Shown in pieces: positions 32,101 to 62,105 of a stretch of 64,000 bases of DNA. Position 1 is the stretch's first letter; each line of letters begins with the position of its first letter. Both the position numbers and the translations under genes were made by a program. Source of the stretch: Psilocybe cubensis. Its lineage: Eukaryota. A model generated the notes under the pieces. The model did no database searches, had not been told where the DNA came from, and was given only the letters and a program-made list of their open reading frames with translations. The stretch is taken from positions 2,108,001 to 2,172,000 of the forward strand of contig CM039000.1 of the NCBI GenBank assembly GCA_017499595.2. Direction: 5' to 3'.

Positions 32101-32914
32101 TGACGGATAAGAGAGATGGTATGGTACAGTTGTTCAATTACTATTACTCGAAACTGGGCAAGAAAAGGGCTTTGTTAGATATGGGCTTTCGCAAGTGGTT
32201 ATCACCACAGATGCCGCATTGTGATTGATGCATTAAATGCACCAGATGTCAGGGAGAGTGTCTTGCAACGGTATTGCTCAGAAAAATTGATTCCAATTGA
32301 TTTCTCCGTCGAGACACTCCCAAATATTTGGGGCTGAGAGTAACGCACCACGAGCAGAAGTACTTTATACTGTGACACTAGCGTCATAATACACATTTAG
32401 GGTAATTCCACATCCGAGTCTTTCCACATGGTAACGTGTTTAACACTAAATTGAAAAGTTTTCTGAATTTTATGCTATTGCAGTGACTCTAACTCTTCCT
32501 GCCCATAATGTGATGGGGTCATATCCAAGTTTAAAGACGTTTATTCCAAGCCAATCACTGAAGCCAGTTAATTCTTCAATGTCGAGGCTCGATGCACATT
32601 GACATGTATTTTTGCCTAATGCAGTGAGTCTCGCTGCGCCCGCAACAAATCAGCCAACGAAGCAGATCATGGCTTCTTGATATTATCCAATCCCTTTAAA
32701 CCCCAGGGTACGATTGTAAGTCCGGACGCGTATTTGCGTGTTTCGGTGGTAACACGGTCACGTGATTAATTAAACGCGTCAATTATCATGTCAGAAGCTT
32801 GATAATGCAAAGTTTTACCGGGAGATTCTCCGAGAAGTCAAAAGTGGAATACAATCAATTGTGAAGGAAGACAATGAGGAAATGCATGGAACATACACTG
32901 CGGGCTCCGATACA

Positions 32915-33296
32915 TGTTTGATGTCAAACATCGTCAATCAAACACATATTATGTAAGAAGACGATGTTTGATGTCAAACATAAGTTGTGTTTGCTGACAA
33001 ACAAGCATCAAACATAAGTTATGTTTGATAGGCATGTGATATCAAACACAACGTATGTTTGACGCCTGTTTGTCAAAGAACACGGGCTTGACAGAAAATC
33101 TGTCAAGTTCGCTGTAAGATAACAAACGTACATTGTGTTTGATAAATAGTGTTTGATTCCAAATATAACTCCTGTTTGATAATTTGTGCATGAAATCATC
33201 CGTATATTCTGTATGTTATCGACCATAAACATCAAACATAAGTTGTGTAAGAAATCAAACATAATATCTGTTTGAAATCAAACAGATTGTCAAACA
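32915..33296. repeat. Subterminal repeat array: 17 exact copies of TGTTTGA/TCAAACA in both orientations, plus variants
   Basis: Counted directly: 8 TGTTTGA and 9 TCAAACA, often paired as palindromes such as TGTTTGATGTCAAACA. Confidence 0.92.
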
Positions 33297-33318
33297 GACA
33301 TCGACACGCTCATCGTGC

Positions 33319-33383
33319 CGCTCAGCGCGCGCCTCCTCGCGCGATCAGCGCGCGCTTGACGCGCGATCGGCGCGCGTTGAGCG
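33319..33383. repeat. GC/CpG-rich imperfect palindrome, 65 bp
   Basis: cgctcagcgcgcgcc...ggcgcgcgttgagcg with inner tcgcgcg/cgcgcga and tca-gcgcgcgc-ttga arms. Confidence 0.85.
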
Positions 33384-33922
33384 ACACGCCCAGCGATTTT
33401 ACGGCTATTTTGGCGTCTCGGTGATAAGCGACACACCTCACCAACGCTACTTAGGCGCTTGTGTATTCAGCGACGAGAACACGCTCTTCATTCAATAACG
33501 CTGTATCAGTGACGCATGTTTATTCAGCGAGAAAAAACGTATTTTCGAGTGAAATATATGTATTTTTGGGGCTCGGGTGTGTCCTACTACCATACACATA
33601 AATTGACAAATGCTACACAGTCAAAGCTGCTTTTCTCCCTTCTTATTTCTAGAACCTGAGTCTCTATTTCACTGTAGTAGCAATGTATATACTCACATCA
33701 ATGTATTTTATTCGTTTGCCATCGTTTGCCATTGCCTTCTATGAATTGATGTCTCTCAGAACAACTTTCTCGCAGTCTCTTATCACTCACCACACTCCCA
33801 CTCACTCACCACACTCACTCACACTCACTCACCACACTCACCACACTCGCTCTCACTCGCTCAAACACATTCATTCATCGTCCTCGCTCATCACGCCCTC
33901 TATCAACATCGATATTCGTACC

Positions 33923-34466
33923 ATGTCCACAATAGTCTCCAACATCTTTTCCACCATCGTTTCCTTCGTCAACGGCATCAAATACGGATTCGCGTCGGGA
34001 TGCGAGATCGTGGAGTGGTTATGCACGTACGGAGGGCCCGCCTTCGGGGCGATAGCTCGCTACATCAACAAAAATAGCGAAGCGCCAGTTGTTCTGCGAA
34101 ATCGTAGCGGTATGCCAGTGAGTATTTGTAGCTTTGAACAGCGTCTTACCGCTCCTTTCAGGAGGAAAGTTGATCAGCGACATGGAGGCTCAACACTCAC
34201 CAGCCAACGACGCCGATTTCGAGGAACTCATCCGCGTTCGCCAGGAGATTAAAACCCTGAAAAAAATTCTCGACAATCGAAGCGCACGTACTCGGCCTGG
34301 TACATCGGAAGCGCACGAAATTCAGCTCGACCGCTTCGAACTTGAGCGCAAGAAAGTTCTCAACGATATCGCGATCGAGGCCCAAATACGTGCCACCTAC
34401 CCTGCGCGAGCCCTGTATCTCGCAATGTGCGAGACATACGATGTCGCTCCTGTCCGCACCGACTAG
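33923..34466 (+). CDS. Small two-exon uncharacterised protein with a coiled-coil C-terminal half
   Basis: MSTIVSNIF...VLRNRS|GGKLISDMEAQ...APVRTD* with a GTATGC...TTTCAG intron. A CACT/CACA-rich leader lies at 33783-33865. Confidence 0.6.
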
Positions 34467-34809
34467 GCGCCCCGGCGGGTTTTTCTTGTTGTTATCTTTT
34501 CTTCATTTTCTTGTTGCTTTCTTGTTGCTTTCTTGTTGCTTTCGGTTTATCGCTATCGCTTCGTATTATTGTACATATATCCCTGAATTTTACCATTTGA
34601 TTCGCTATATTTGTATCATACTCATTGAAGACTCATAATCTCATTTCTGAATAATAAAACTCCTTAACATTCGCGGACATCTGTGGCCTATGTTATTTCA
34701 TGAAGCTTGAAACAACATTTTTTTTATTACCAAACAAGCGTCGTCAGCACCTTTAGAGGCAAATTAACGCGCGTTTGCCGTTTGGATACCTGCTGCACCG
34801 GCACCTGCT

Positions 34810-35163
34810 GACTCAGTCCTGCCCTTGTCCCTGCTGCAGCTGACTCTGACTCTGTACCATGCGTATCGACGAGCTGCGCGACTGCGACGGCGCCGTGTTT
34901 GTCTCGTACCCTTCGCCATCTGTGCGGTCCGCGTCCGTCTGCGGCTTCTGGTAGGTATCCTGCTCCTGCTCGAGATCCTCCTCTGTGAACTCTCCCAGTA
35001 CGGGTTCCGTGTCCAGGAAGGTATCCTATTGAAAAAAAAAAGACTGTCAATGTCAATAAAAACACGCACATAGAGAAAGAAGTAAAAAAAAGAAAAGGAA
35101 AAAAAAAAGAGATAAAACACGCACCATCACCAAAAACAAATTCTTCTTATCATGGAAACTCCA
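34810..35163 (-). pseudogene. Remnant of an AGC-type protein kinase gene with the catalytic core deleted
   Basis: WSFHDKKNLFLVM (kinase subdomain IV-V-like, 35163-35125), then a GTGCGT...AATAG intron, then DTFLDTEPVL... resembling an AGC C-terminal tail. Confidence 0.5.
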
Positions 35164-36220
35164 CTCACAGCGGTCCTAACAGAAATCACACCACGCATGT
35201 CGTCAACACAAGCAACTCAGCAAGAAAGAGACGTCAATCTTACAGATGTTCTCCGGGGGCCACTACAATGCCAAAGAATTGAGCGTCTGCGGATGGGGCG
35301 AGAATGGATGCAGGACAATGGGCTAGCTATGGAACGTTTGGTATCAGTTACGCATGCCAGGAAAGCGAGACGCATCAGGCTCCGATTTCGGGTGTATGCG
35401 GATGCGCAGGACTTCAGGGCATACGCAAACAGCAGAGCGGCGATGACGGGTTCCACACATCGGGCACTGATAGAAACAAACAGCGCCAGATTCAGCGTAG
35501 CCTCCTGGAACTGCAACGGAGGACTCGCGGCATCAATCCATACGCCAATGTATAGGGATCTCGTACTATCTAATGATGTTACCTTCTTCCAGGAAACACA
35601 CATGGCGCCAGGGCAAGAGGATATTCTGGATCTACCTCGCGGTTTTCATCCAGTGGCACGATCGCGACCATGGCGGCACCCCCTAGGCGGCGTCACTGTA
35701 ATTATACGGGACACTGTAAAATATAGAATATGCGACGAGATCATGCACCCAGATATACTGGTCCTTGAGCTCCCATCCCTAATCCTAATCTGCTCGTATC
35801 TTGTGCCAGAGAACTCCAGATGGGAATCTTGGACGCATGTGGACCCTAAGACATGGCTGGGGGAGGCTATCGAATATTTGTGTCTTGCGATCCAAGGCAT
35901 ACATGATTATAGGCGACCTGAACGCGCGTATAGGCCTGCAACAAGCAGCGGGATCGCACTTAGTACGAGTGTCTCCAGATAATACCTGCATTGCTAGAGG
36001 GAATCGCCTACTGGAAATCATGGGGCAGAATTCTCTGCATGTCGTGAATGGGACACCAATCGACCGAACGCCGTTCCCACAGTGGACCTCCAGTCAGGCC
36101 AACGGAGGCCGCTCTGTCATTGACTACATCATCGTCTCGGAAGACGCGCTCCTGTCGTTGGAAGCCATGGATGGGTTGGAGGAAGAGTGGATGACCATGC
36201 AGGGATACATGTGGAGATGA
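35164..36220 (+). mobile_element. Non-LTR retrotransposon (LINE) 5' fragment with a frameshifted APE endonuclease domain
   Basis: VASWNCNGG, DVTFFQETHM, GGVTVII, ICSYLVP, then after a frameshift near 35880 IIGDLNARIG, RGNRLL, VVNGT, RSVIDYIIVS. Confidence 0.88.
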
Positions 36221-37054
36221 GATCTTCTCTCACTCTTGGGCTGATCGTCTCAATAACGCCGCTCACGCGTTCATAAACCGCGAACACGATCGCCTGCCCG
36301 GGTGCCACGCGCAGCACGCGGGGGTGATGCCCTTGTAGAATGACCGCACGCCCTCCATCTTCCACATATCTGCCGCGATCGCGAATATGCGCTGGAAGGA
36401 GGATTGGCCTGGAGTTGCTTTGGCTTTTTGTAGACCTGATATAATTGATTTGAGTAAGAGAGGCTAAGAAAGTGTAGTTAAAAAGGGACGTACGAGTTTT
36501 GATAGTGTCTATTGGTGCATTTGAGAACGGACCCATAGCTCCAGAGATAAGACCAATCATCATGTGTTGGTAGGATGGTAGCTCGACCAAGTCTGGCTGG
36601 TACTTATGCGCGAGCTTCTTGATTTCTTGGTACGCGGTGAAGTTGGCACCTAAGGTGGACACACAAGCCTTAAGAAAGGCGTTCTTCGGCTATTCACGAA
36701 TGAAGACGTACCCTGATTCGTAGCTTGTCTCAGTGGCGTCAAAGAGACACCACGATACAATGTCGAGATTCCTTCCTCACGAATGATGGTGTACACAGCA
36801 TGACCAGCATTACGGTACCGAGGCGCTTCAAGAGGATCGGCCAATGAATGTTGTTGAGCTTGCAGAGGAATCTTCACCACTTCCATGGGCGTCACGATGG
36901 CAACAGCTTCCGTCACTCCAGCCCCAAGACCGGCTATACGCAAGTAATTAAAAGATGACATCAGCTCAACACCTTCGCGGCAAGAGAAAAGAATTACATA
37001 CCAATGAAGATATTCCCAATACTCGTCTTCCCTGTTTGCTTATCGGCAAGCCGA
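36218..37054 (-). pseudogene. SFC1: Captured 5'-truncated mitochondrial succinate/fumarate carrier (SFC1-like) with introns retained
   Basis: GLGAGVTEAVAIVTPMEVVKI, ADPLEAPRYRNA, LYRGVSLT.LRQATNQG, GPFSNAPIDTIKTR, RVAPGQAIVF. It lacks the N-terminal third, has R>P and A>P changes in conserved motifs, and has a 1-nt deletion in GITPRV near 36322. Confidence 0.85.
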
Positions 37055-37339
37055 CGATGGTACATCTCCTCTCAACTTTTTAATAACCCTTGCAGTATGT
37101 TTTTCTCTGTCTATTATTTGGCAATACAATTAACACACGATAGACTTCGACGATGCCAGCGGGAACATCTGTGTCTATATCCTCCCCAAGTGGGATGATC
37201 AATCTTGACAAGGTACGGGGAATTCAGGCTCCAAGAAATGCTGAGGAAACGACACGACCCAGACATCGAGGAATGGTATGCCATTGACTACGAAAGTCTT
37301 GCAAATTACCCGCCTTAACTCAAGCATAGGTTTGGACGT

Positions 37340-37850
37340 CTTCGGCTGAAGGGCCCATGGGCTCATCCTATGCAGCGAGGTTGCACTGGTGGAACGCGCG
37401 CACCTGGTCAAGGGCATGCACCGACGACAGTGTGCAGAACTCCACGGTTGTGGAAGACCACAAAGTCATCTTCGCGCCAGTCGTGTGGATACACCAGCTG
37501 CTCCAAAATTCAGCTTCGAACAAAAAAGCGCAGACAATATGCGAACTTACAGAAGGAGCGATCGCAGGTCATTGCTACGACTCCTGGAACAGGTGCAGAT
37601 CAAGTGTCTGCGACGAATACTGGGTTTGGGTCCGAGGTCGATAACGGCAGTTCTTTATTCTGAAACAGGAGTACTTCCCATTAAATATAGGCGGTTAATC
37701 CTAGTACTACGTTACGACATCCCTCCCCGGAGAGCGATAGTTAGGATGGTTGAGAGACCTAGTCCGGGCACTGGATCTACTTCCCTGCCCGGCGCAAGTA
37801 ACAGCAAGAGAACTGTGGGAATCGGAGGGCACTGCGAAGGTGATCAACGC
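37340..37850 (+). mobile_element. LINE 3' fragment (region C-terminal to RT), degenerate
   Basis: LLEQVQIKCLRRILGLGPRSITAVLYSETGVLPIKYRRLILVLRY and WLRDLVRALDLLP resemble the post-RT region of fungal LINEs. No RT core is present. Confidence 0.7.
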
Positions 37851-38399
37851 ATCTACGCCCGCTCCTCCCGATCCGATCCCGATCCTCCCGCTCCAGCATC
37901 CGCAACCGCAACAGCATCCGCATCAGTGTCCGTATACACACTAATCACATTCTCTGCCTACACATATACACATTTCTTAATCAGATAAAATCAAACTCCC
38001 ACAACGAAAGAGAAGTGACGTACCATCTTCATCTTCATCCCCACCTTCCCCTTCATCCGTCGAATTCGAATGCGAAACGGGAAACACCAGAAACAGAGCT
38101 CAAAGCAGGCGATGGCGCTCTCTCCCCTGCACCTCCTTGTTCGGAACCCTCACCCGAACCCTCAACGACCCAACTACGACTCACAGACCCGTTGTCCGAT
38201 ACAAACGACGACGATATCTCCTGCGTGTCGTGCGAGATGGAAATAGACTCTGACTCTGTCCCTGAAAGCGAAAGGTACGGCGAGTGCAAAGAAACAGGCG
38301 AACGGGTACAACGACGCGGAATGCAACGACGCGGCGCGCGGCACGAACACGGGTGCGGGCGGCGAGAGTGTGAACGGTGCGGGCGCTGGTGTGGGTGAT

Positions 38400-39500
38400 G
38401 GTGAGCAGGTGCGTGAAGCGTTTGATGAGGCTGGGGCTGAGCCTGAGCCTGTTGTGGAGGCGTTTGACGAGGCTGGGGCGGAGGTGGAGTGGAAGGGTAC
38501 GGTGCAAGTGGGTACACACTCCTCTTATTCGCCGGTGCTTGTGCTGGTGTATTCCCATTCCCAATCCCCAACACCTGCTGCTCCCTATTCCCTTTACCCA
38601 CCCGCGACCGTGCCTGCAACTCCCGCTTCACCGCATCCACATCCATCGCGCGCAGCACCTGCTCCGAGAGCGTCGGGAGCAGCGCGAGGAGGATGTTGCG
38701 ATGTCTTCGTGTGTTTGGGTGAATTGAGTGCGGAGGCTTGTAGGTTGTAGTAAGTTAAATAAGTGTAGGGGAAGGGAGGGAAAAGAGGAAAAGGGGTGTT
38801 AGTTGTGTTTAGAAAATTAGAGATAAGAATGGGAATAGAATAGGATAAAAAAGAATGGGATACAATAAAAGCAAAGAAAATAAAAGTAAAAGCAAAAGCC
38901 CATCCGACGGTTCTTCTATCCATCCTGCTATCCGTCCTGAACCATCTATCCACCCGTATCAATCAACCCGTACATGCATGCATCGGCCAAAACGATCTAT
39001 GCGAAGATGAAGACGAAGGCGAAGGATACACCCTCGAACAAACAACAACATGAACAAGAACCAGAACCGTGCTCGTTCAAAGTACCTCTGCAAGATGGAT
39101 GGAATAGAGAACCTCCGAAACTGGAATCTGTCCATTCCACCGAAATCTATCCAAATAAACCCACAAAAAAAACAATCCAAAAAACATACTCTCTAAAAAC
39201 CACACTCCAAAAACAAAAAACCCCAAAAACCAGAAAAGAAAGAAAGAAAGAAATAAAAAAATAAAATAAAAAAACACTCACACATCCCTCGCCTGTTCCT
39301 CGGCGTCCATCTTCTGCCTCACCTCATCAAGCCGCACGCGCATGAACCCGCGCGCGTCCTATAGGCCGCCGATGATGGTGGTCGTTTTGAGTGCATTATT
39401 CAACTTTGCCAGATGTTGCTGACGTTGCGAGCTAACATTCTCCACCTCCATTTCATCCTCTTCGATAATACCGCCGGCCACACGACCATGAGCGTCCTCG
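38400..39500 (-). pseudogene. Captured fragment of an unidentified host gene with introns, a stop and a frameshift
   Basis: GGL*DARGFMRVRLDEVRQKMDAEEQARD|T-rich intron(s)|LRTQFTQTHEDI/RNILLALLPTLSEQVLRAMDVDAVKRELQARSRV. Confidence 0.45.
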
Positions 39501-39549
39501 CCTTCCGGGTGATCAATAGTCCTCTTTCTCTCTGTCTGTCGAGATGACC

Positions 39550-40292
39550 CCATCCCTATCAAGCGCGTCAGTGGACAACGCAGTCGACGCTAGATTCGTC
39601 ATGGACGGCGCGGCAGACCACCCATTCACATCCCCTCCAATACTCCCACTAACACTCCAACTAAGCGTCATCGCACCAAACGAGCCAAACGGATCCGGGC
39701 CCTACTTGGCAGGAGCCATCACAAGCGGTGTATTCCCCCCTTTCTTCCCGATCCCAATGCCCATACTCATCCCCATCCCCTTGCCACCCCCAGGCGACGC
39801 CAGCCGCGAAAGCGTGTTCAAAAACGTCGACTTTCGTTTCTTCTCCTTCCCCTTCTTCTGCTGCGCGAGGGGCAGACCGGCGGGGTCGATGGGCAGCGAT
39901 GGGATTTTGAGGCCCGGGTGCGTACTGCGCAGTTTCACGTCGAGTTCGATGAGCTCCGCGGCGGTGCGTATGAGCGTGAGGTTGTGTGTGGGTGCTGGTG
40001 TGTGCAGTGTCGTGTTTGTTATCACAGGTGATGGTGGTCGGTGCATGGGAGTAGGTGCGCGGCGGCCGTGGTGGTGGTGGTAGAGATAGAAAGATCGGCG
40101 CGGGTGGTGGTGGTGGTGGTGGTGGTGGTGGTGGTGGTGGTGGTGGTGGTGGTGAGAGTCGACGAGCGGGGGTTGGATTCGACGATGTCGGCAGCGTGGA
40201 TAGCGACGCGGACGATGCAGCGGATGAAGACGACGACGATGACGTCGGTGTGGGCGGGACGAAGTGAATGGTTAAAGTAGACGCAGACATCA
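39550..40292 (-). pseudogene. Captured N-terminal fragment of a host gene, possibly the PX-like N-terminus of the same AGC kinase
   Basis: HRPPSP...LTLIRTAAELIELDVKL...IPSLPIDP...KKRKSTFLNTLSRLASP, with broken frames. Family identity is from memory only. Confidence 0.4.
40103..40153. repeat. (GGT)17 microsatellite
   Basis: Seen directly. Confidence 0.95.
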
Positions 40293-40759
40293 TACAGTGG
40301 GGAAAACCAAAAGCGCCACGATGAGATGATGAGATGATGGGAGTGTACAGGTTCGTGTCTAGTGCTTTCATTTCGTCTTGATTTCGTGTTTGGGTTTGGG
40401 TTTATAAGTCGGAATTCGAGTTTGTCTGGTGGGTGTTGTGTAAGATATGCTATGCTATGGTGTGATATGTGGTGTGTAACAGTGTAAGATGTTCAGAGCG
40501 TACTGCAAGTCGGTGTGAGGTAAGATGAGCTGAGGCGCTAGTGTCAGCGTCGGTGTAGGCGTAGGGTGTAACCGTAGAACACAAACTGGGTTGGCAAACC
40601 AAAAGCCAATGTGAAGGTCGATAGTCGATAAACGGTGTTGGTGTAGGTGTAAGTGGGCAGTGGGTATACCACGCCATTCTCCCCGCTTCAGATCGAAAGG
40701 CAAAGTCAAACAAAGAGTCAACAGTCGAATCGAAAACCCGCAAAAAGGGGTTGGTGGTG

Positions 40760-41775
40760 GTGGTAGCACCCCACTGCACAACTTTGCCTGGTCTTCCTCG
40801 TCGTCTTCGTCGTCTTTTTCTTCTTCGAAATGAGGCCGTCGGAGAGGATGTGGACGTCGATGTCTACGCCCGTTTCCATGCCCATGTCCCTCATTGTCGA
40901 CTTCATCGTCTTCATGGAAATCGTCCTCATCATCCTCTGTATCGTCCGATTCGCTGGGACTTACTAACCCAGGCTCGTCCCCGTCCTGCGCCACTGTAAC
41001 ATGTTGGTTGAATTTTTTCTTCCTCGCTTGCTCTAATTCAAATTGTACATCCTCCTGGTCCGTTTCTCCCTGGTTTTCATCGCGTACCGTATGATGTGGG
41101 TTGAAGCTTTTGGCATTCATCTTTTTCTTCCTATCCCTAAGAGCGGCTATTTGGGCGTCTGCTCGCCATCTGTTGGGGTCCACGGCGATGTTTGTGTCCA
41201 GATTCTGACGCATTGCCTCCATACGTAGAGCCTCGATCTGACGCTCATTGAAAGCGGCGCGTTCCCTCCACGCTCAAGGTTCAGGCTGGCAGGGTCGAGC
41301 GGCGCAAAATGGCGGACGAGCCTGGGTTGATGTTGCAGTTGTGGTTGCGGTGGAGGCGCGTGAACGGGGGGCAGATCGGGGAGCTCTTCCTCTTCGAATA
41401 CGCCCAGGCGAGCATTCTGCGACATCCATTCACGGAGGAGGAAGACGGCAACGAAGATGAGTACAATGAGCGATGCGATGATCAGGCCGGTGAATATGTC
41501 TGCCGAGGGCGCTAACCATGCCGGATGTGAAGAAACCTTGGAGAAAAAATGCTGTTGGATGGCGGCCCAGGGGCTTCGTAGCGAATTCTATCGATAGAGG
41601 AAGCTATCAGAAGTGGATATTAGATTGAGATCCCGGATGAGTACGTACGCGGATTCTCCCATGGAAAAGACGTCCACACTGTTATGCATGGCAATATTCC
41701 TAGCCAGATTGTAGCAACAGCTATAATACGAACAACAGGGAGAAAAATAATTGTTGTAAAAGCCGCCGAATTACC
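40760..41775 (-). pseudogene. DOA10: Captured internal fragment of the ERAD E3 ligase Doa10/SSM4 (MARCH6-like)
   Basis: IRRLLQQLFFSLLFVL*/VATIWLGILPCITVWT/FSMGES...SADIFTGLIIASLIVLIFVAVFLLREWMSQNARLGVFEEEE. No RING-CH domain, several frameshifts. Confidence 0.75.
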
Positions 41776-41855
41776 CGTCTAACGTCACTGTCCGCAGTCC
41801 CTAAGCCTAAGTCGTAAGTAAGAGGGAAAGGATACAAAAAATACCCTCGAAAAAT

Positions 41856-42058
41856 CTCGCATGCCCGAGGCATGGTGTTCATGGTATCATCTGGAATACA
41901 ACTTCCAGATCGCAGTTTGATGTAAGCCAATTGGACAGGAATGCTGCTTAAGCCGTCCGTTCGAGTAGTATTTGGCCAGATCACTGAGGAGACCATACGC
42001 CAACCTCACTAGAGAATCAGAGCGTTCCTCGTCGAAGGCAGCGGTGAACAAGCTCCAA
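41856..42058 (-). pseudogene. KAP95: Captured C-terminal fragment of importin beta-1 (Kap95)
   Basis: Across frameshifts it reads LELVHRCL/DEERSDSLVRLAYGLLSDLAKYYSNGRLKQ/AFLSNWLTS/LRSGSCIPDDTMNTMPRACE, matching the last HEAT repeats (GLLGDLA...TMRWARE). Confidence 0.7.
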
Positions 42059-42260
42059 CTTAAGTAGTCGAGCACGCCAAAGATGTCGCTGAGCGTCCTA
42101 GTGAACTGCGTCGTGATGGGCACGACTTTTGCCTGGCGAGGTGACGCACATGGACGACAATGCTCTCGTCTTTTCTGTGCCGCTCCGCCGCGAAACGGAG
42201 GTGAAACAGTTGTAGAAGTAGCCTAAGTGAAGTGGCAGCCAACCAGAGATGTCAGTAGGA

Positions 42261-43536
42261 ATCGTTAGTGTTCGGGATAGGAGATGGGCTATACTATGTA
42301 AGTTACTACAGAAAATTAGGTAGACAGAACGAAACATACCTGTGTAGAACAAGAGGAAGGAAATGGTGAAACGAACGACTTGAGTGAGAATCGTGTGCGT
42401 CTAATCGCATGGTTAGCAAACGGCGGGTACACTGGAGTTGCGACTTACCAGACATGCTTCGAAACTTTTGCGATGTCTTGTTCGCTGACCTGTATCTGCG
42501 CTGAATGACTGACCCAATATACAACACTGTGCAGAAAATTGTGTTACTTACGGCGAGCGTAGAGATCTCATACGTGCTTAACATCTGTGTTGGCACTTCG
42601 ATTACACCTCACGCACAATATCATTCGGTCCCCATTTCGCTCCCTGTAGTAGTATTTGTATTATTTACATGGTACACTACGCTAGACTGCCTACATGGAT
42701 AGCAGCGCTACTCGGTCTATATGTGCTACTTCACCCGCTAGATGAGCATGGTTGGAACAGAAGAAGAAGAAAGCGTGAGAATATGGCCAGCACGCCAACA
42801 AGTACCGCAGAAGTTCGATGCCGCTCATGCCGTCGCCAAATTGGTGATGCGCGTGATTGGTGGCACGGCATCAGCGGCATCAAACTTCTGTCCTGTATCA
42901 TGGCGATTTTGTGACGGTGTGACGCCTTTCCACCTCTCTCTCAACACTCACTCCTATGAAGCACGTCGTACGTAGAGATGGTTCGCATACGAGCTTACTG
43001 TAGTAGTAGCACTTTAGTGTAGACTCTAATACCATAAACTTAGCTAGCTGCGTACTCTAGTAATACAATTTTAGTTCAAGTGACATAGACCCGGCTTGGA
43101 AGGGCAGAGGAAATAGTCGGGTGAGCGACACAGAACGAGGAGGAACTACAATTCATTTGGATAGTGAATTACGCAGAAACATAGGTGCGAATCGTATTTT
43201 TATTACTATCAGGCAGGAAACACAAGCCAAGAACACCTTCTACAGCACACCCGCCGCCTCTTCGCCTGCCAGACCCGTATTCGAGCGTCACAAACATAGG
43301 TGAGGAATCATCTTTGCTATCAGTGCAGGAAACATATTCTACAGCACATGTGCCGCCTCATTGCTTTACAGACCTCACTTATTCAACGACGCACCCACCT
43401 ACATTCAAGAATTGAACGTTGAATGCTGCCATAACTTTATGTTTTGTACGACGCTGCCTACTGTAAGCACCCGATCTGCGAGGTACCCTCTTTGCAGGTT
43501 GCCGTTTTAATTTGGATTTCACGATATCGGGACTTG
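42261..43536 (-). repeat. Module R copy 1, left arm of the 1276-bp near-identical inverted repeat
   Basis: Reverse complement of 59814-61089 (coordinates sum to 103350, mirrored ORFs are identical). I spotted only two mismatches, at ~42267 and ~43474. Weaker similarity continues to ~43586. Confidence 0.97.
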
Positions 43537-44169
43537 TGTAGGATGTGCACATGGCTTCCGTCGACTCTCCTGCTAATGCAACTATATGCAAGTCTATTCT
43601 CATCTGACACGAGTAACGTAAATATCTCATTTACCCCCCCCCCCCCCCCCGTTGCTCTATTGAACCCCACAATTGGGATGACAGCCAGCGCTTTCACATG
43701 TTATTTACAACATCCTGATTTAATCAGGGGCTGCTAGAATTTTCGCTCATTCCGCACCTCGACTCGAGCCATATTTTTGAGAAGTAAGTTCAACCTTACA
43801 CGCGTGTAGGCAACGCTCGTGTCCTTTCTGCCTCCGTACTAGTCTCTTGTTTGGTAAAGACCAATTTTTCCATTGCTCCTCTTGCGTGTTATCATTCTGT
43901 CCTCGTTTCATAGGGACTACATCTAGTATGTAGACTACATGTTCGACGCCGCTCATGCCGTCGCTTGATTGGTGATTGCGCCAGCATCACATGTCGCCCA
44001 ATTATCTTATCTTATCGCTGTCAGAATAGACAAAACAGCAAGAGATCCCTTAAGACTGCCGGCGCAGCGCGATGGCAGGCGCAGAGCGAGACCTGTACTC
44101 GGATAATCCAAGGTGGCTTTACAATACGGATTGGTTTAACGGGCAGCCTATGATCAGATCAGAGTGGTG

Positions 44170-45570
44170 AAAGTGTCAAAATGAGTGAAGGCGTTAACAG
44201 CCGTGATTCATACGAGTTCTGAGAACACACCCCCGAGATTGTGTGGTTCAGCAAAGAAACAAAAAGATGATTGAGATATCTGGATATGAAGAGCTGTTTG
44301 AATTGCACCAATGCTAACGGAAGGCCACAACATATGTGCTTGTGGGACTCGATGAGAGCCATGAGCAATTCACATAAGATAAACACAGTCCGGCTCGATA
44401 TGGTGCAATCCAATTAAAACAGCACCTGCAAAGGGGGTACCTCCTAGACAGAATGCTTATCGTAAGAAGCATCGCAGAAAAAAATATGGCAGCGTTCTGT
44501 GAGTGTGGCGTCGTTTATTAAGTGACGTCTGTCAGGCGACGAGGCGGCGCATATAGAATATGTTTTCCATACTAGTGATAGCAAGATGATTCTCACCTAT
44601 GTTTCTGTGTAATTATGTGACCTCGAATGAAGGACTGGTGGGAGAAGAGGCGGCGCGTATGCTAGAACATGTTTTTGGTTTATCTTCTCTGTACTGATAG
44701 CAAAAGATGATTCTCACCTATGCTTTTGCATAATTCACCAGCACATGAATTGTCATGTTCACCGGTCTTTGAATTAAAGTTATTATGGTGTTAAAATCTA
44801 CGTTAAAGTATCCCTACCGCTAAGCTAAATATTTGAATCGAATTTACATTCGACCCGCCGCATTGGAGAGTGGGGGTTGTCAGAGAGGAAGAAAGGCGTC
44901 ACACCGTCACAAAATCGCCCTGATACAGCACAGAAGTTCGATGCCGCTCAAGCCGTCGCAACATTGGTGATGTGCGTGATTGGTGGCACGGCATGAGCGG
45001 CATCGAACTTCTGCGGTACATGTTGGAGAGCTGGACATATTCCCACGGTTTTCCCTTCTTTCCTGCGCACCATCCTGGCCACGACGTTCGGCGGGGCTGG
45101 TGAACCTGAACCTGTCAAAGCAGCACGTTGAGATTGAGTAGCGTAGCAATTTATGTACATGGACTAGCGTAGTGTGCAATGTATATAGTACTAGATCAGA
45201 GGAAATATTCTGCTACGAGATGAGGACGGTGACGCGTCAGAGGCATGGGGATCATATAGACTCTACCACCCGGTGCGATGTCTAGCGTACGCCCTGGTTT
45301 TGTAGGAGGTATGATGCTGCACATTTGGTCAGTTATCCACACAGATCCACCTTTAGTGAACAGAACATCTCTTGGTTGGTGAGTCGCAACTCCAGTCTAC
45401 CCTTCAATAGCAAAGCACACTGACTGCTTGCGGACCGTCCCGACCGTCCCAAGGAAAATTACAGACTGCTTGCTGAGCGTCCCTGGAAAAACTACACTCA
45501 CTTATTTCTTACCGAAGGTGCTCGTTGCACCGTCTGCTTCGTCTTGCTTCACTTAGGTATATTCGGTACA
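44170..45570 (+). repeat. Module R copy 2, diverged; inverted relative to copy 1 and direct relative to copy 3
   Basis: Collinear blocks shared with copy 3: acctgcaaag.gggtacctc, gatagcaa.gatgatt.ctcacctatg (twice), aaaggcgtcacaccgtcacaaaatcgcc, the 83-nt hairpin and gt.agtcgcaactccagt. Confidence 0.85.
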
Positions 45571-49209: not shown

Positions 49210-52200
49210 TCAAAGAATTTGCCTATCTACAGGTCGGAGTCGGGATAAAGATACACATACAGCGACGTCTCTATCTTCCCATGGGATGATACATTTGGCA
49301 AAGTGTCCTTCTACAGCTGAAAAAGGAAGGACTTCGAGGATATCTTGGACGTCGGTTCCCCATAGTTTGGCACGAAAATGAACCCACGGGATATAAGGAT
49401 CGTATTTGACCCCCGCTTCTTGGTATCGATTAACCACAAACCATATATCATCCCTAAGTACTTTTTTAGGAAACTTGAGGACATTCTTGATACGGTAGGG
49501 CACATTTGACGCATTGAGGACCCCGCTATTGCCTTCATGTACGTCCCAAGATGTATAAGATATCCGACCAACGCGATAACGGTTTGTATACATTGCCCGC
49601 GCGGGCACGGTTGTCACACCATACCGTAAAAATGCCCGAGTAATGTCCATCTTTAACACCACCGCACGTCGATCATCGTATGGGATGGCTTCTTCTTGAA
49701 GATCTTCTTCGCTTTCCTCGTCGTCTGTCTCAGTGTCATCGTCGGCCTCAGCATTTGCGACATCGATTGTCTCTGCTTCTCCTGCGAGTATGTACCGTCC
49801 TTGGGGCATCACCAACTTGCGAAAGATCGGCCAACAGTCCCGAATAGCTTGTGGACATCCTGGTCTTTGAAAAATTGCCATAAGTTTGGACCTTCTGTGC
49901 CAGGAAGTCGCAATTGTTTCCTCGTACTCGCCTACTATAGATCAGTAACCATGAAAGAGCAGGCAACAGGTAAAGCAAATTACCTTGCTTGTAATTTGTG
50001 GGAATTCTTTGCAGCATCCCAATCATACGTTCGAAGGGAAACGTCCACCAACCATGAACAGGCCCATATTCGATGATAAACTCCCTCATATGCATAGCCA
50101 TATGATGATTAGGAACACACTGGTAGCTTGGAAACAGCCTTGAAAGCTCGGAACGGTATTGTACCATCAAATTCAGGTATTCATTGGCCATAGCTGGTGA
50201 TGCGACCCGGGAAGTGATGACAGATATGGCCTCAAAAAGAAGCATCGTGAGGCGCAAAAGTTCTCGACGTGTTTGGGCAGGTTTCGAATGGTCAATTCCC
50301 GACCATATTCGGATGAGGGTAACTGGGATGTAAAGTGCTGCCGCAATGCGCCATTGGTCTGATTTGAGTTTTCCACTCTTTGCGGACATCGACCAGGGTA
50401 ACGACGAGACCCATGACGGTTTTACCATAGCTGCAATGTCTCGTCGGATGGATTTCATGTCTTCTGCTGTAAGTATCTTTCCCTGCTTGCCATCCACTTC
50501 TGAAGTAGCCTGGCTTGACTGTGACTGGCCGAAATTTTTAGTTGTTAGAAGAATTGAAAAATTTAACAACGTACGGATCTTTCTTTACGCTATTCACCGC
50601 GTATTAAACTATCAGATTGATGTTGAGGTAACGACGATGCAGACGTACCCATTGAACAAGCATTTGGGCCAGATCTTCTTTCTTGACTCGCATCATACCA
50701 TTTAACGTGTCCCGGCCACGATTGGTGATGGTAGAGGGTATACACCCCAGATGTTTACCAACAAAAACAAGGGCTTCTGCTGCGGTCTTCTTTGCCAACT
50801 CGTTTGCTACGTCGGCATCTTCGATTGGAAGAGGCTCTGCCAACCATTTTCTGATGATGCGTATTCCTTTTTGACCAGACTCTGAGGTTGGCAAAGGATT
50901 ACTTTCATTGCCCTCAATGTTTTGTAATATAACGCTATCGCTCGATATAGGTGTTTGTTGTTTCTTCTTCTGCTTGGGTAAATCAGAACCGTCACCGAGA
51001 ATGTGCTGAAAATGCTCTTTGATGAGTCCAAGAAAAAGGTTATGCATCGGGTCTACAACAAGGCTCATGGTTGGCCGATAATAGGGCAATCGATGAAATT
51101 CTGACGTGCGCAATCCGGATTTGTCGAAAAGGCTTGCAGCGGCCTTTTCGGAGGGGGCTGCCTGGTATTTCCAGGCACCATCTCGACATTCGTCATCGGT
51201 GCGCCATGTCCATTTTTCATAATCGAAGTTGTTGAATGTATGCACAGTTTTACTACACCAGCACATCGAACAGAAATATTCCTGATTGTATGAAGAAAAT
51301 CCACCAGCCTTCCGTGCTGCAGGAAGATCGGCGATGATTGCAAGAAGAGCACAAAGAATAATGCGCCCCATAGCGTAAAGAGCGGTGCGCGTAAAAAAAA
51401 CACCCACCCAAAACAGCAGGAAAGTGTCAACAATAGGGCGGAAGTATGGGTTTGCTGCTTCTAGACTGGGTTCATTGGGACCCGGAATAATACCCGCGAG
51501 AAAGATGTTTTCAGGTTGATATCGAGTAGTTATGGGAAGGTTGAGGCATGTTAATGCGATAACTCCAATTGAAATCTTCTTTCCAGCCGTAAGATTACGC
51601 AAAGGATTAAAGAAATCAAAGCCGAGTGAAAATAGATAACGTCCAGTAGTTTCATTTCCGGATACACCGAAAAATTTCTTATCGCATCCCTTGAAGTTAC
51701 GGATGCTGGAAGACTGAAAAATATCGTCCATGCGCCCATTTTCTTGAACAGGTTCGAACGTTTTCTTCCAAGCACCGTCCATTGCTTCCTCGTATCCTCG
51801 ACGCGATAACATGCCACCAAGCCAGTCCTGGAAATCGAATGATAGGAAGGGTTTGATGGGTACATTAATGGTCTTATTGCTGTATCTCTTTGGCCGGACA
51901 AGAAGTTCCCCACAACGATTACCGAACTTCCGGGCATTGCATCGTTCGCGATAGGTAGAAATATCGTCCTCTAGGGTTGGCTTGTAGATTTCATTGCACT
52001 TTGGACAAGCGGCATACACGATGAACTTCGAATCAATGTCAAAACGCTTGATTGCCGCTCGAACGTCTAGAGGAAACGAACGAAGAACTTGCTCGAGCCA
52101 ACGAGGAAGGATTTTGTCGACAAAGATAGCCTCTCCCGTTCTTTGAGCGATATATTCGCACATGGAAAAGACAAAATAGCATCCACGTCGAGGAAACCTC

Positions 52201-53043
52201 AATATAGCGTAGCAAGAAACAACCATAAGGTTGATCATCTGCATCGCGTCAATTATCCATGGGGGTAGCCAAGGCATACTGTATGCATAGGGAAGGAAGG
52301 GAAGGAAGTGGTGCCCTAGGGTCGATAGTTGATAAATAGTTCATCGAATACAAAGTGAAAAATAAACATGCTCGCTCACTTGAATCGTATAAATTAGGTA
52401 CGCTATCCTGAATAGAAACTCGCTGGCGAGATCTCTTCGTTTGCCTCTCCTTCCATGTTGCCTCTACACGGTCTACATCTTCATTAAGTCGCTCGATATT
52501 TTGGTGTGCATCATGTCGCAAAGATTTGATCGAGGCTTCCTTGCGCAAAGGACCGGATTTCGTAAAGTCTAAATCTCTCGATGCGTTGGAATTAAGAGCT
52601 CGTACTTCATGGCAAAGTTGAATTGCCTTATCAATTTCCCCATTGCTGAAATATTTCTCTCCTGAGATGTCAATGGTGTTGATTTGTTGGGCACGAAGTC
52701 TGGTATTGTCTAGAATATCTGCAATCAGAGCCACGATTTTTTTCTTCTGTTCGTGCTTGTACTGCACTTCCTTTTCCTTGATCGTCTCGGTGTCCGGGTC
52801 CTGAACAGATAAAAGTTGCATTGCTTTCTCCAAGGTGGTTTCGACCTTCTCCATGGCCCTTTGCTGCTCAAGGATCGCCCGTGATTCAAGATTCCTCTTC
52901 ATCTGACCCACGCTTTCCTCGTGTTGGTGCTTTTTATATGTAGATGGCGACAATTGAACACCTGGCTGTCCTGTGACAGGATCGCGTTTCGCGCCGCACC
53001 CATGCACAGTGCACAGGCAAAACTTGGCTTTCCAAACCGGCAT
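49210..53043 (-). CDS. CACTA/CMC-EnSpm (Tnp2/Transposase_21-like) DDE transposase, about 4 exons, apparently intact
   Basis: YAACPKC, GFDFFNP (D), GIIPGPNEPS, RPIVD, IADLPAARKAGGF (D), FCSMC (CxxC), VDPMHNLFLG, KLKSDQW, PNHHMAMH, YGPVHGWWTFPFERMIG (E). The four ORF pieces splice in frame. Confidence 0.93.
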
Positions 53044-55036: not shown

Positions 55037-58000
55037 TCACAGTATCTTTTTCTTGTACTGGTCTTTTAACTGAGTCATAACATTGGAGTTGAGGTCTCTG
55101 TCTTTCTTGGACTCGGGAACTGAACACAGGAAATCCGTGCTGAGTATAAATCGCTCGCCAGTTAAAACGTCTACACGATCTTTAGATCGGGTGACTACAG
55201 CGACCAAGACAGTTGGATTATCCGAGGTGCCTTCATGATGAATGCGACGAACGAATTTCCCGCAATGTTCCCCCTTGATAACCACTAGAGGCCCATTGTC
55301 ATGTATTCGATTTGCATACTTCGGAGTGACCCAAGCGGGGTCCACCATAGTCCATGAACTGTACTTTTTGCACCTGAGTACGAGGTTGTTTGCATCCCAA
55401 ACCGTTGAGGCGACTAATGTTTTATTGCTGAACTGTCCGCCGTTGACTACCACATTCAGGCTGATGTCCACCAGTTTGGGGTTTAAGAGAACATGTTCGC
55501 ACACAGAAGAGGAAGTCGTATGACAGTTTGTTTCAGATGAGGAGGAAACAGATGTAGAGACGTCTGATAACGCAAGACTTGTTGGCGAATGAGCAGTTGG
55601 GTCAGGTGTCCTTGAGGAGGGGTCCCAAGCTGGAGTGATAGATTGCGGTGTACCGATGGGTGTCCTTGAGGAAGGATCCCAGGCTGGAGTTGCAGTGGGT
55701 TCTGAGTACATCGGTGTGCCGCTCGCTGACGCAATCGTTTGCGGTACGCCAGGGAGAACGCGGACGTGCTTCATGGAAGACTTAGGTATAGGACGGAAAA
55801 ATTTTGGCCCAGGATCAAGGAAAAGAACGAGCTCATTGAACGTCCTTGCGTACAAGTTAGACAGAGGGTACATGCAATGACAACACACTTACGAAAGTTC
55901 GACGACATCGTCATAGTCCACAACGATTGTTTGGAACGGTGCAAAGGGATTAAAACGGGTGAGTTGAATAACGAGCTGCAGTCCGGCGTTGTCTGTATGA
56001 TGAAGGACGTCTTTGATTCGTCCAGTCTCACCCTTGCGTGGGTGAAGATGCTTCTGTATAATGACCTCTAAACCAGTCCATGGGTGTCTTAAAAACTTGG
56101 TGTGGACTGGGTCTGACTCCGACAATAATGTCACATCGACAAGAGGTAGGGGCTCAGTAAATGAAGTGTCCAAGAGATTGACGTGTACCGCAAAATGCTG
56201 TTGAAAGGTATAGCCACGTTAAGAGAAAAACCGGTGAATATGTCAAGCTGCAAATTTACTCACTTCCACAATCTCAACCTTGTTATCATCTCCTACCCCA
56301 GAATTAAACTGGTTAGATGCTGCTGTTGTACTGACCACAGCGCCCTGGTTGTACGACTCCTGAGCTGCTGTTGGTTTTCCTACTCCTGTGACACACGAAC
56401 TCCCTCCCGGCATCGACATTTCTTCTTCATCTAACGTTGCTGCTGATTCATCCAAAGTTAGAGCGATATCCGAATGCACCATTATACCCCCTGGCATCAT
56501 TTGCGCTTCTACCGCCGTCCCCAGATCTGTCTCCGCCGAACCTTTTCTCAGATCATCGTTCCCTGTCGGCACGGGATATTGTTCTTTTCCGTTGGTGGGC
56601 GTCGAAGATGTTTCAGCATTTGTTTCCACAATGGAAATGCGACCATGCACCGAACTTTTCGTTATTAGTGCATGGTCTCCATGGATTCCAACGACCCAAC
56701 CTCTGTGATCGAAATAGGGGCCGCTCACAACTCGAACGAATTGCCCGATTTTTGGTGACTTGAGAATGTCTAGCCATGTTCCCCTAACACTGTAGCGGAT
56801 TTCACGTTCACCTTCGATTGTTGATTGTTCTGCTTCAACGTCGTATGTGTCCAGCTTTTTCAGCACTGCAGGTTCCCACTTTGCAGACCGATTCGCAACG
56901 TCGGGTGTACGAAAAAGAACCTCCTCTTCCAGTCCTAAGCACCATTCCCGAGGACGTGGCATACGCGCTCGCATTATGTCGGGATGATTGGTGCTCCTAA
57001 ACATGGAGAAGTGGGAATACGGAATATCCATGACGGAATTTGCGATGGAGGTATAGTCGAAATCCTTTTCCAACAGTCCATGGTCAAACTTGAGAAGTCC
57101 AAGCGTGTATGATCCATCCGCATTGCGAATAATGGGAGTAGAAATGAGTTTGCGGGCTTCTTCAGGGTCGAAAAGTTTTGCTGGGGGTACTAGTACCGAT
57201 GACTTTCTCTTTTGTGACTTTGCAGATTGCGAATTTAGCCGAGGAATGAGAAGAACCTGAGCGCCCCAGGAAAAAGTCGCTGAAATCAGTCCAACGTCTC
57301 CTTTGTATATGCCTTTCTTAACCAAAACCCAGGTCCCAACCTCAAAATCCTTCTTGACATCCCTCATCGTAAGAAGTTCGTGCTGATGGTTCCGATCCAC
57401 TATTTCGCGCTTGACTCCAAGGTGGTTACGAAGGATTCCGGGCGTGGACAAGAGCAGATTCACGAGGGCTGGATCCATGATACCTTCAACGTAGATACTT
57501 CCGCGTATAGAGCCGCGAGTAAATGCGGAACGAATATGGTGGATCTCCCTTGCGGTCTGGAGAAGGGATAGGACAGCTGCATCCTCAGAGCCGATCTGCA
57601 AAAGTTGATAGAAAAATAATCAAGGGATAGGTATTCAGACTTACCCGACATCCAACCCTCCAGAGAGGATAGTCATTCTCAAGCGGAAGACGCGCAATCT
57701 TCTCCTGGAGCATGGTTATCCTATCTTCCTCCTCCAAACGTATAACCGGACGTGGTTGACGAGGGCCCTTTGCTTGAGCCTCCAGGCGAGCCAGTAGTTG
57801 GTTAAATGAATCCTCCTCGCTGTCATCTTCTGGCCTATGGAACGCCATAGAGCCTATGTGATCTTTCCCGTCCACTTCCGCTCCGTCGTTAATGAAGGCA
57901 TCTGTAAAGACAGTCAAATCAAGTCTATCGCAACATTCTGAACAGCTCGCCTTCAAGGTCCCGTTCTGCAGACGTAAGCTGCTCATCGTCAGAAAGCTCT

Positions 58001-58123
58001 CCATCATCAGCTACCTGTGCCTCCGTGTCCAGAAATTGGCGGACGTTCCTCATAACCTAGGGAGAAAAAATCATGAGTATCAAGATGCTTTGAACAGAAA
58101 TCAAGCAAGCCTACCCGCTTCAT
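55037..58123 (-). CDS. Spt5/NusG-like transcription elongation factor paralogue (acidic N-terminus, NGN, multiple KOW, CTR-like repeats), about 6 exons, ~930 aa
   Basis: RQFLDTEAQVADD...FIND; LWRVGCR|IGSED...IRSAFTRGSIRGSIYVEG; GTWVLVKKGIYKGDVG..LLIPRL..PPAKLFD; KIGQFVRVVSGPY; HPRKGETGRIKDV; TPAWDPSSRTP twice; VVIKGEHCGKFV. The exons splice in frame. Confidence 0.88.
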
Positions 58124-58329: not shown

Positions 58330-58520
58330 CAACGCCAATGCAGAATCCGTGGCGTATCTTACCTGGAATGACAGCCCCTGAGCAACGAGGAGACAAAACG
58401 GTATGGTGGAGAGAAGAAGAAAAAGAGCGTGGGAATGGGTGGGGGGCTGTAGAAATGGCGCAGAAGTTCGATGCCGCAAATGCCGAAACATATCACGTGT
58501 TAATGTTCCTCGGGCATCCC
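58330..58520 (-). repeat. Module R copy 4, a short diverged fragment upstream of the Spt5-like gene
   Basis: atggtggagagaagaagaaaaagagcgtgggaat...cgcagaagttcgatgccgc matches 42748-42825. Confidence 0.7.
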
Positions 58521-59379: not shown

Positions 59380-59709
59380 GAACATCTCGTGTTCGGGAGA
59401 GTAAATTCGGCTTACAGTACGTGTAAAACAATACCTCACGGCGATTCGAGTTCGAGGGTGAAGTGGGCGCTGGGCAATGGCCGTGTTAGATTGTTGAACG
59501 AGATTTTAAACCACCCACTGGCAGGACAAAATGGGGTTGGAAAGTCACCGAAGATTATTATATCAAGTAGAGCTTGGGTTAATAAATTTAGTATATCAAT
59601 TGCAGATATTGATGAAGCGACATACTTCATAGATTGAAGAGAATTATTAGACGGGAACATCTCGCGTGTTCGAGAGAGTAAATTTGGCTTACAGTACGTG
59701 TAAAACAAT
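59380..59709. repeat. Direct repeat of ~54 bp (59380-59432 and 59655-59709)
   Basis: gaacatctcg(cg)tgttcg(g/a)gagagtaaatt(c/t)ggcttacagtacgtgtaaaacaat occurs twice. Confidence 0.92.
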
Positions 59710-59813
59710 TGAGACTGGTGCCGCTCGAATACCTGATAGAAAAAAGACGGAGCCAATCTATAGTTGCATAAGCAGGAGACTCGACGGGAGCCATGTGCAA
59801 ATCCTGTATATTC

Positions 59814-61089: not shown

Positions 61090-61129
61090 CCGCACTATGC
61101 GCTATTAAGCAAACAAGATCCCGGACTTG

Positions 61130-61604: not shown

Positions 61605-61884
61605 GTACGTGGCTGAACGAAGACGGCTGCGCACAGTACTCACTCCTCACACAGAGTTGCAACGCCCGTCCTTTGCTGTGTCCTCTCCATTCCATCGGTT
61701 GCATCAACGTTTTAGGGCAAACCATGACATATACAGAAGGTCATCATTTCGCGAGAGTACGTTTTTCGTCTTCTGTCTCTCTTTCTTAAGCACCAGGTTT
61801 TGATCTACAACTTCTCCTTAGCACGCTATACTTACGCCCGAGATACTAGCCATCATCCGCAAGGGCGGGCCCTCCGCAGAATGG

Positions 61885-61980: not shown

Positions 61981-62105
61981 CTGCTATGAAATGACGACCG
62001 AATGCTATCGTGCAAGTGTGACCAAAGATAACACGAAGTCTACTAACGCAGACAGTCTTTGTGCACCGCTGGTCTGTGGATTCGTTGTCGGTGCTTTCAT
62101 GCAGG

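What the first reader, a model, noticed from the sequence alone, without database searches (positions are those of the whole stretch)
44931..45013. Hairpin loop occurs in flip and flop orientations
Seen: copies at 44931 and 60460 have same-orientation flanks (aaaggcgtcacaccgtcacaaaatcgcc before, cggtac.tgttgg after), but their 31-nt loops are reverse complements (cgcaacattggtgatgtgcgtgattggtggc versus gccaccaatcacgcgcatcaccaatttggcg). Established: flip/flop isomers arise from recombination between hairpin arms or from hairpin resolution, as at parvovirus and poxvirus termini. Inference: the hairpin extrudes and is processed at the DNA level, either as a micro-inversion hotspot, an invertible switch, or a resolution site.
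Basis: seen in the sequence. Interest (0 to 1): 0.72.

Follow-up and report, generated by a model that had tools for sequence, protein, structure and literature searches.

The report
Fixed loop inversion in giant transposon
The flipped hairpin loop is real but looks like one old, fixed micro-inversion inside a promoter-like cassette repeated five times in a 50-kb fungal transposon; what differs in orientation between recent copies is the kilobase segments between those cassettes.

Summary
Observation confirmed: the 31-nt loops at 44957 and 60486 are reverse complements (28 of 31) between same-orientation flanks. The switch or resolution-site reading is not supported. The hairpin lies in a 50.6-kb EnSpm/CACTA transposon (10.7-kb terminal repeats, 3-bp target duplications; five near-identical copies, five hairpins each). 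Of 30 two-armed copies scored, 5 are flipped, all at the orthologous site B: one inversion, best explained by a template switch or ectopic conversion through the 26-bp arms. Each arm heads a conserved unit (17-nt motif, then a CACGC-pyrimidine tract 44-47 nt on) that also stands alone or in back-to-back pairs before genes of related elements, so the hairpin is probably a divergent promoter pair (inferred; no RNA data). The 0.7-1.4-kb repeats around the hairpins do recombine: three segment arrangements occur among five copies. Raw reads show no joint at B, but 4 reads in each of two runs switch strand at hairpin A. They show one junction only, so a fold-back artefact, a rare flip or a second flipped copy remain open. 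The scan had noted this element's Spt5-like gene on this window, and nothing like the hairpin on other DNA.

The parts
44931..44956 (+). Site B, left arm (26 bp); read on the minus strand it is one copy of the conserved arm motif
44957..44987 (.). Site B loop, inverted relative to the flanks ('flip'); same state in all 5 element copies and in a contig of another study's run
44988..45013 (+). Site B, right arm; nearly invariant across all lineages of the cassette
44880..44901 (-).
45043..45070 (+). Second motif of the rightward unit (CACG plus pyrimidine tract), candidate start-site region
42808..42890 (-). Site A hairpin ('flop'), in the inner end of the left terminal repeat; the rare strand-switch joint in raw reads maps here (42817/42882)
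60460..60542 (+). Site C hairpin ('flop')
59464..61829 (+). Repeat module around C; 1283 bp are a 100% inverted copy of 42254-43536; 1424 bp and about 1.6 kb are shared with modules D and E past the window
60902..60949 (+). Candidate 48-nt intron (GT donor, branch-like motif, AG) downstream of the C right arm; the donor is kept in diverged copies
   Evidence: read from the sequence; no RNA support
58461..58486 (-). Single arm with its second motif, about 450 nt upstream of the Spt5-like reading frames; an orthologous single arm lies on contig C8
43936..43961 (-). Degenerate single arm with part of the loop; lacks the second motif
32896..43586 (+). Left terminal inverted repeat (10.7 kb, 99.8% identical to the right one), beginning CACTG; 3-bp target duplication at 32893-32895; carries host-gene and retroelement fragments
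49751..52340 (-). EnSpm/CACTA-type transposase reading frames (Transposase_21, E 1.2e-8; CxxC, MH, H(3)H and FPFER visible in the translations)
55040..58010 (-). Spt5-like gene (KOW, E 1.2e-7; weak KOW1_SPT5)
61830..64000 (.). Start of the C-D segment (to extended position 69384), inverted in 2 of 5 element copies

Best explanation
The hairpin is two back-to-back copies of a promoter-like unit of a giant EnSpm/CACTA transposon: a 17-nt upstream motif, an AT-leaning stretch, and a CACGC-pyrimidine tract about 46 nt on. Because the two upstream motifs face away from each other they form a 26-bp inverted repeat. Once, on the branch that separates site B from the other sites, the 31-nt spacer was inverted by a two-jump event through the arms: a polymerase template switch, or gene conversion from an oppositely oriented sister cassette. 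It was tolerated because each unit is left intact, and was then copied by transposition. Shown: orientation counts, element structure, segment isomers, motif conservation and spacing. Inferred: promoter function, the template-switch or conversion mechanism, and homologous recombination as the cause of the segment inversions.
For: All 5 flipped loops of 30 are at B and identical. The 5 elements differ by 4-30 private substitutions in about 15.8 kb, so the five B sites are one event. B's left arm equals the right arm at positions 9 and 19, where C and the close C8 copies differ; a reciprocal crossover would keep those mismatches, whereas arm homogenisation with spacer inversion is the described product of intermolecular template switching (PMC8604942, passages). 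The arm motif occurs alone (58461; C8:2741437, C8:2667617) and in pairs with poorly matched arms (9 pairs on C8; one pair in 5 copies of a second family), so the motif outlasts the perfect stem. In the second family one pair lies between two head-to-head genes and another about 530 nt before the Spt5-like gene. The second motif sits 44-47 nt on in 14 aligned arms. 3 of 9 new site types found with the first motif alone met a strict second-motif test that 0.05% of random positions meet.
Against: No transcript evidence for any unit. The second-motif test was defined after looking at the sites; 6 of 9 new site types failed it, and the sites may share descent. No site was found upstream of 10 more distant Spt5-like genes, in 70 kb around a related transposase on C12, or between the two head-to-head genes of this element whose homologues flank a site in the second family. 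Arm position 9 is a CpG and 2 of 5 C9 sites carry the same change on the other arm, so the arm-correction signal is weak. The flank distances do not root the cassette tree, so which orientation is ancestral is not shown. The five copies are very young, which gives little time to see a second flip. The strand-switch joint at A (4 reads in each of 2 runs) may be a second flip.
Confidence: 0.62

Rival explanations
1. Micro-inversion and rearrangement hotspot: the hairpin forms on single-stranded DNA during replication, flips or folds back repeatedly at a low rate, and seeds the module exchanges.
For: Joint 42817/42882 on opposite strands in both raw-read runs, within the 9 letters between the two arm mismatches. 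Both junctions between C-type and diverged flanks fall in or within about 45-55 nt of the hairpin: the C9 left arm and the D upstream flank. Stem energy is -27 to -35 kcal/mol. B's loop is closer to C's (28/31) than the outer flanks are (69-77%; P 0.007-0.03 at 70-75%, 0.11 at 80%).
Against: Only one of the two junctions a flip needs is listed. Chimeric reads at inverted repeats and palindromes are a described library artefact (PMC10908179, abstract). The core is also the most conserved stretch, so ordinary crossovers would resolve there. No flip in 4, 5 and 9 copies of three other paired sites.
Confidence: 0.2
2. Programmed invertible switch or site-specific recombination site: an element-encoded enzyme acts on the arms, flipping the loop and the segments between sites.
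For: Arms with an asymmetric spacer resemble recombinase sites in layout (recalled). Three segment arrangements among five very young copies.
Against: No recombinase family in 32 ORFs (not every exon was scanned). Loop state is fixed per site. The inversions lie between 684-1424-bp near-identical repeats, so breakpoints cannot be placed at the arms and homologous recombination suffices. Single arms persist before genes.
Confidence: 0.08
3. Hairpin-telomere resolution site, as at parvovirus or poxvirus ends.
For: Only the flip/flop pattern itself.
Against: The sites are internal, five per element; the element ends are CACTG termini with 3-bp target duplications; orientations are 5 to 25 and site-specific, not equimolar; no Rep or resolvase family seen.
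Confidence: 0.02
4. The stem-loop acts as structured RNA or as part of a small coding exon.
For: Strong stem; a frame is open across A and B on one strand.
Against: No Rfam match at E up to 1 in 59400-61900. The ATG of that frame is missing in three diverged copies. Single arms and weak stems are kept, and the loop tolerates inversion and a 10-nt deletion.
Confidence: 0.08

Closest known systems
Spacer inversion between short inverted repeats by polymerase template switching (yeast cases in PMC8604942, passages read)
   Same: Inverted spacer between arms longer than 9 bp, with one arm apparently corrected to the other.
   Different: The spacer is 31 nt against 2-5 nt in those coding cases; conversion from a sister cassette is an equally good route here.
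EnSpm/CACTA DNA transposons, fungal lineage of the CMCT clade (PMC12730594, passages read)
   Same: CAC...GTG termini, 3-bp target duplications, Transposase_21 with C(2)C and H(3)H motifs.
   Different: About 50 kb with 10.7-kb terminal repeats, five internal cassettes and segment isomers; the review passage read gives 16-20 kb as enlarged En/Spm (PMC6431247).
Teratorn of medaka (PMC6431247, passage read)
   Same: Giant transposon with long inverted repeats around a unique region; subtypes differ by an internal inversion.
   Different: Teratorn is piggyBac plus herpesvirus genes with internal TIRs; here the internal sites do not resemble the termini and no viral family was seen in the ORFs scanned.
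Parvovirus and poxvirus flip/flop termini (recalled)
   Same: A loop found in two reverse-complement forms.
   Different: Internal, site-fixed, not equimolar, no resolving enzyme seen.
Bacterial invertible switches and shufflons (recalled)
   Same: Segments between inverted sites occur in alternative orientations.
   Different: The repeats are long and near-identical, no recombinase was seen, and mixed orientation at one locus is not shown.

Membership tests
EnSpm/CACTA transposon (host element) | CAC...GTG terminal inverted repeats | tested here: met
   CACTG...CAGTG in 5 of 5 copies
EnSpm/CACTA transposon (host element) | 3-bp target site duplication | tested here: met
   ATA, GAA, AAC, TCA, TAT in 5 of 5
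EnSpm/CACTA transposon (host element) | Transposase_21 domain with C(2)C and H(3-4)H motifs | tested here: met
   PF02992 at 34.9 bits, cut-off 28.6; motifs read in the translations
Template-switch spacer inversion | Spacer exactly inverted between arms, flanks colinear | tested here: met
   28 of 31; flanks on the same strand
Template-switch spacer inversion | Arm mismatches of the ancestral form removed | tested here: inconclusive
   B matches at arm positions 9 and 19; position 9 is a CpG, position 19 also matches in the distant C8 copies, tree unrooted
Parvovirus/poxvirus flip-flop terminus | Hairpin at the end of a linear replicon | tested here: not met
   Internal sites in a chromosomal element
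Parvovirus/poxvirus flip-flop terminus | Both isomers about equimolar at the same site | tested here: not met
   Fixed per site in 30 copies; no joint at B, under 1% of depth at A
Recombinase-driven invertible switch | Dedicated tyrosine or serine recombinase | tested here: inconclusive
   None among 32 ORFs scanned with Pfam; short exons were not scanned and a trans-acting gene is not excluded
Recombinase-driven invertible switch | Both orientations of a segment at one locus in a culture | not testable with these tools
   The 151-nt reads cannot span 684-1424-bp repeats
Divergent (bidirectional) Pol II promoter | Transcript starts on both strands | not testable with these tools
Divergent (bidirectional) Pol II promoter | Position between or before gene starts | tested here: inconclusive
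   Met for a pair and two further sites in related elements and for the 58461 arm; not met at the head-to-head gene pair of this element

The most novel reading that the evidence does not exclude
These giant mushroom transposons run their own transcription programme: the cassette is the loading site for an element-encoded factor such as the Spt5 paralogue (by analogy with RfaH and ops, recalled), driving long divergent transcripts through captured host-gene fragments. The same palindrome serves as a preferred exchange point that flips segments and swaps arms, giving herpesvirus-like isomers and new transposition-competent hybrids such as the C9 copy.
Probability: 0.12. Interest if true: 0.82.

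Novelty: new variant of a known kind. Interest (0 to 1): 0.42.

Why it matters
The flip alone is an ordinary micro-inversion. What it points to is less ordinary: a recently active 50-kb EnSpm family with 10.7-kb terminal repeats, built from segments joined at one conserved cassette. Inversions, allele conversions and an arm swap separate copies that differ by only a handful of substitutions. If the cassette is the element's promoter, it gives a defined, testable cis-element for a transposon that carries an Spt5 paralogue, and a route by which large fungal transposons reshuffle and transcribe captured host fragments.

Tried and rejected
Rfam scan of 59400-61900 at E up to 1: no match. Metagenome pattern scan for the two arms: 1 match, in GC-rich coding-like DNA with no flank similarity, judged chance. 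Sequencing-run search: no RNA holder listed; the presumed RNA run X17 laid nothing; neither bears on expression. Coding reading of the hairpin rejected (ATG not kept). A looser paired pattern gave 11 places against 42 for its control: 4 belong to the second family, 6 that I read lacked the rest of the unit, and 1 (C4:3916912) was not read. Two CCAAT boxes in the loop are kept in B and C but one is changed in the close C8 copies and both are absent in the distant ones; not significant, left as a lead. The CGG-N6-CGG spacing in the arm recalls Zn2Cys6 factor sites (recalled, untested). Atlas searches for a candidate binding protein: one ORF resembles basidiomycete clusters with DUF8263 on 19-25% of members, the other gave nothing at 0.9 or above. 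Look-ups of earlier findings by sequence and by words returned nothing. Literature searches with no paper holding the terms: transposon + Spt5 + Agaricomycetes; 4 of CACTA, transposon, inverted repeats, isomers, internal inversion; Psilocybe + transposable element + EnSpm. The listings showed no title on this element. The library lacks most subscription papers, and the supplements of PMC12730594 (Repbase entries) were not read, so the family may already be catalogued.

Full report
Observation. Two 83-nt hairpins with 26-bp arms and 31-nt loops lie at 44931-45013 (site B) and 60460-60542 (site C). B's loop matches the reverse complement of C's at 28 of 31 positions and the same strand at 10 of 31. 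The flanks are colinear: 38/40 and 32/40 next to the arms, 77% and 69% further out. The four strands fold with z-scores of -6.4 to -11.5.

Context. The genome is 46.6 Mb in 21 contigs; I take it as a basidiomycete from gene style and an Atlas hit. An earlier AI note names it Psilocybe, which I did not check. The hairpins lie in a 50,620-bp element running from window 32896 to extended position 83515. It has CACTG termini, 10.7-kb terminal inverted repeats that are 99.8% identical, a Transposase_21 gene and an Spt5-like KOW gene. Five copies (contigs C1, C3, C4, C9, C11) each carry a different 3-bp target duplication. These termini, duplications and transposase motifs define EnSpm in PMC12730594 (passages read). 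The 15.8-kb cores differ by 4, 5, 6, 9 and 30 private substitutions, with none shared between copies, so the copies are very young. Nine public runs of three studies hold at least half the words of the B region; the best may be the source sample.

Loop orientation across copies. Each element has five two-armed sites (A, B, C, D, E) and two single arms. Of these 25 sites, 20 are 'flop' and 5 'flip'; all flips are at B and identical. Five more two-armed relatives on C8 (three at about 84% flank identity, two at about 69% with a shortened loop) align in the 'flop' state. The total is 5 of 30, explained by one inversion. The cassette tree is not rooted, so 'flip' being derived is the simpler but unproven reading. 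Paired sites of related families show no flips: 4 of 4, 5 of 5 and 9 of 9 in one state; these are also young copies. A contig of run X9, from another study, spans B's left flank, loop and right arm without a difference.

Raw reads. Two Illumina runs under the same species label laid 7182 and 6007 reads on 42300-45600. No joint is listed at B, at a depth of about 114 and 83; with the three-read threshold this bounds flipping at B only to a few percent. At A, which collects reads of all C-type sites (depth about 690 and 500), 4 reads in each run switch strand at 42817/42882, in the 9 letters between the two arm mismatches. This is one junction of a flip, and equally the junction of a fold-back or of a circle cut out between two sites; the second junction of a flip is not listed. 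Other structural differences in the same table give 21-69 reads, so 4 is low, but a flipped copy in one nucleus of those samples is not excluded. Chimeric reads at inverted repeats are a described library artefact (PMC10908179, abstract only). I leave this open.

How the flip arose. Intermolecular template switching homogenises arms and inverts spacers (PMC8604942, passages). C and the close C8 copies have left-arm mismatches at positions 9 and 19; B has neither, and its right arm is unchanged. A reciprocal crossover would move the mismatches, not remove them, so a two-jump event fits. The signal is weak: position 9 is a CpG, 2 of 5 C9 sites show the same change on the other arm, and position 19 also matches in the distant copies. 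Because the arms are palindromic, an oppositely oriented cassette such as A reads as a 93% direct repeat of B, so conversion from a sister site gives the same product. B's loop being closer to C's than the outer flanks are (P 0.007-0.03 at 70-75% identity, 0.11 at 80%) leans slightly that way, or towards constraint on the loop.

What the hairpin is. Read outward, both arms begin the same unit: the motif GCGGCATCRAACTTCTG, an AT-leaning stretch that reads TATAAAA at one related site, and 44-47 nt on a CACGC-like word and a pyrimidine tract. The 17-nt pattern has 63 exact matches in the genome, all in these elements or the C8 cluster; with one mismatch there are 70, against 5 for the control. 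In 5 of 7 hand-picked contexts the second motif passed a test that 0.05% of random positions pass; the test was set after looking. A matrix of the first motif alone found 9 new site types, 3 of which passed (two of them related to each other), 2 came near and 4 failed. Host flanks gave 0 two-motif sites in 53,200 bases. The unit stands alone about 450 nt before the Spt5-like frames, with a splice donor kept in a diverged copy. In a second CACTG family (39 kb, 1.7-kb terminal repeats) one pair sits between two head-to-head genes and another before the Spt5-like gene. A third set on C8 has 9 pairs in both orientations with poorly matched arms. Against this: no site upstream of 10 more distant Spt5-like genes, none in 70 kb on C12, and none between this element's own head-to-head pair. 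No RNA evidence was available. A divergent promoter pair is therefore the best inference, not a result.

What does change orientation. A, C, D and E lie in near-identical repeats of 684-1626 bp. The C-D segment is inverted in C4 and C9, the D-E segment in C1, and C3 and C11 share the third arrangement; the core between A and C has one orientation in 5 of 5. Two alleles of an upstream stretch are spread unevenly over orthologous modules, which points to conversion: A has one allele in C3 and the other in four copies, and E differs among copies. In C9 the left arm is a shorter, diverged arm joined at the hairpin's right arm, yet the copy has an intact target duplication. D's upstream flank turns to a B-like sequence just past the second motif. 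Ordinary homologous recombination explains all of this; the breakpoints of the inversions cannot be placed inside repeats this similar, and I could not check the assembly against long reads. No recombinase family appeared in 32 ORFs.

Comparison and verdict. The loop flip works like a template-switch micro-inversion and is not a viral-type terminus or a shown switch. The host is a member of EnSpm/CACTA, unusual in size and layout: the review passage I read lists 16-20 kb as enlarged for this family and describes long inverted repeats with an internal inversion for Teratorn (PMC6431247, passages). Searches found no paper with the terms; the library is partial and Repbase supplements were not read. 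Labels such as WD40-like, Zn2Cys6 sites, CCAAT boxes and RfaH/ops are recalled or read by eye and come from no call. Interest 0.42; new variant of a known kind.

Noticed in passing
window 33653-42222 (left terminal repeat): The terminal repeat carries fragments with hits to mitochondrial carrier, importin-beta-like TPR (below cut-off), Peroxin-3 and endonuclease families; those three host-like fragments point outward, in the sense of site A's rightward unit.
   Followed up: partly
window 32910-33274: Subterminal array of 20-nt near-palindromic repeats next to the CACTG end, unrelated to the hairpin arms.
   Followed up: no
window 33308-33400: Another GC-rich imperfect hairpin (about 26-bp arms, 35-nt loop) near each element end.
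   Followed up: no
window 63563 to extended 66802 (L031): A 1080-aa coiled-coil-like frame with tandem repeats whose copy number differs among the five elements.
   Followed up: partly
G000:C9:2361206-2376873: A 15.7-kb element with 320-bp terminal repeats is inserted about 150 bp past hairpin E; a 99.9% identical copy lies on C8. Its frames look Kyakuja/Dileera-like by eye.
   Followed up: partly
window 43865/43866: C4 and C9 carry 238-bp and 407-bp insertions with the same start; loose ends at this place appear in all three DNA runs laid.
   Followed up: partly
window 42300-45600: Read variants are dominated by C>T and G>A (44-47 places each), as from one heavily deaminated copy; an 82-bp deletion at 42409-42492 shows in 38 and 21 reads; depth dips over hairpin B.
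   Followed up: no
G000:C8:2620001-2850000: Nested cluster of related elements holding most of the diverged cassettes and broken Spt5-like and transposase frames.
   Followed up: partly
G000:C8:2718194: A perfect 26-bp-arm hairpin with a 9-nt loop and a different sequence, inside the 15.7-kb element.
   Followed up: no
G000:C12:1849755-1881462: A related transposase region with internal direct and inverted repeats (291-3161 bp) but no cassette of this type.
   Followed up: partly
genome-wide: 27 matches to the transposase and 26 to the Spt5-like protein, in several identity tiers with near-identical members.
   Followed up: partly
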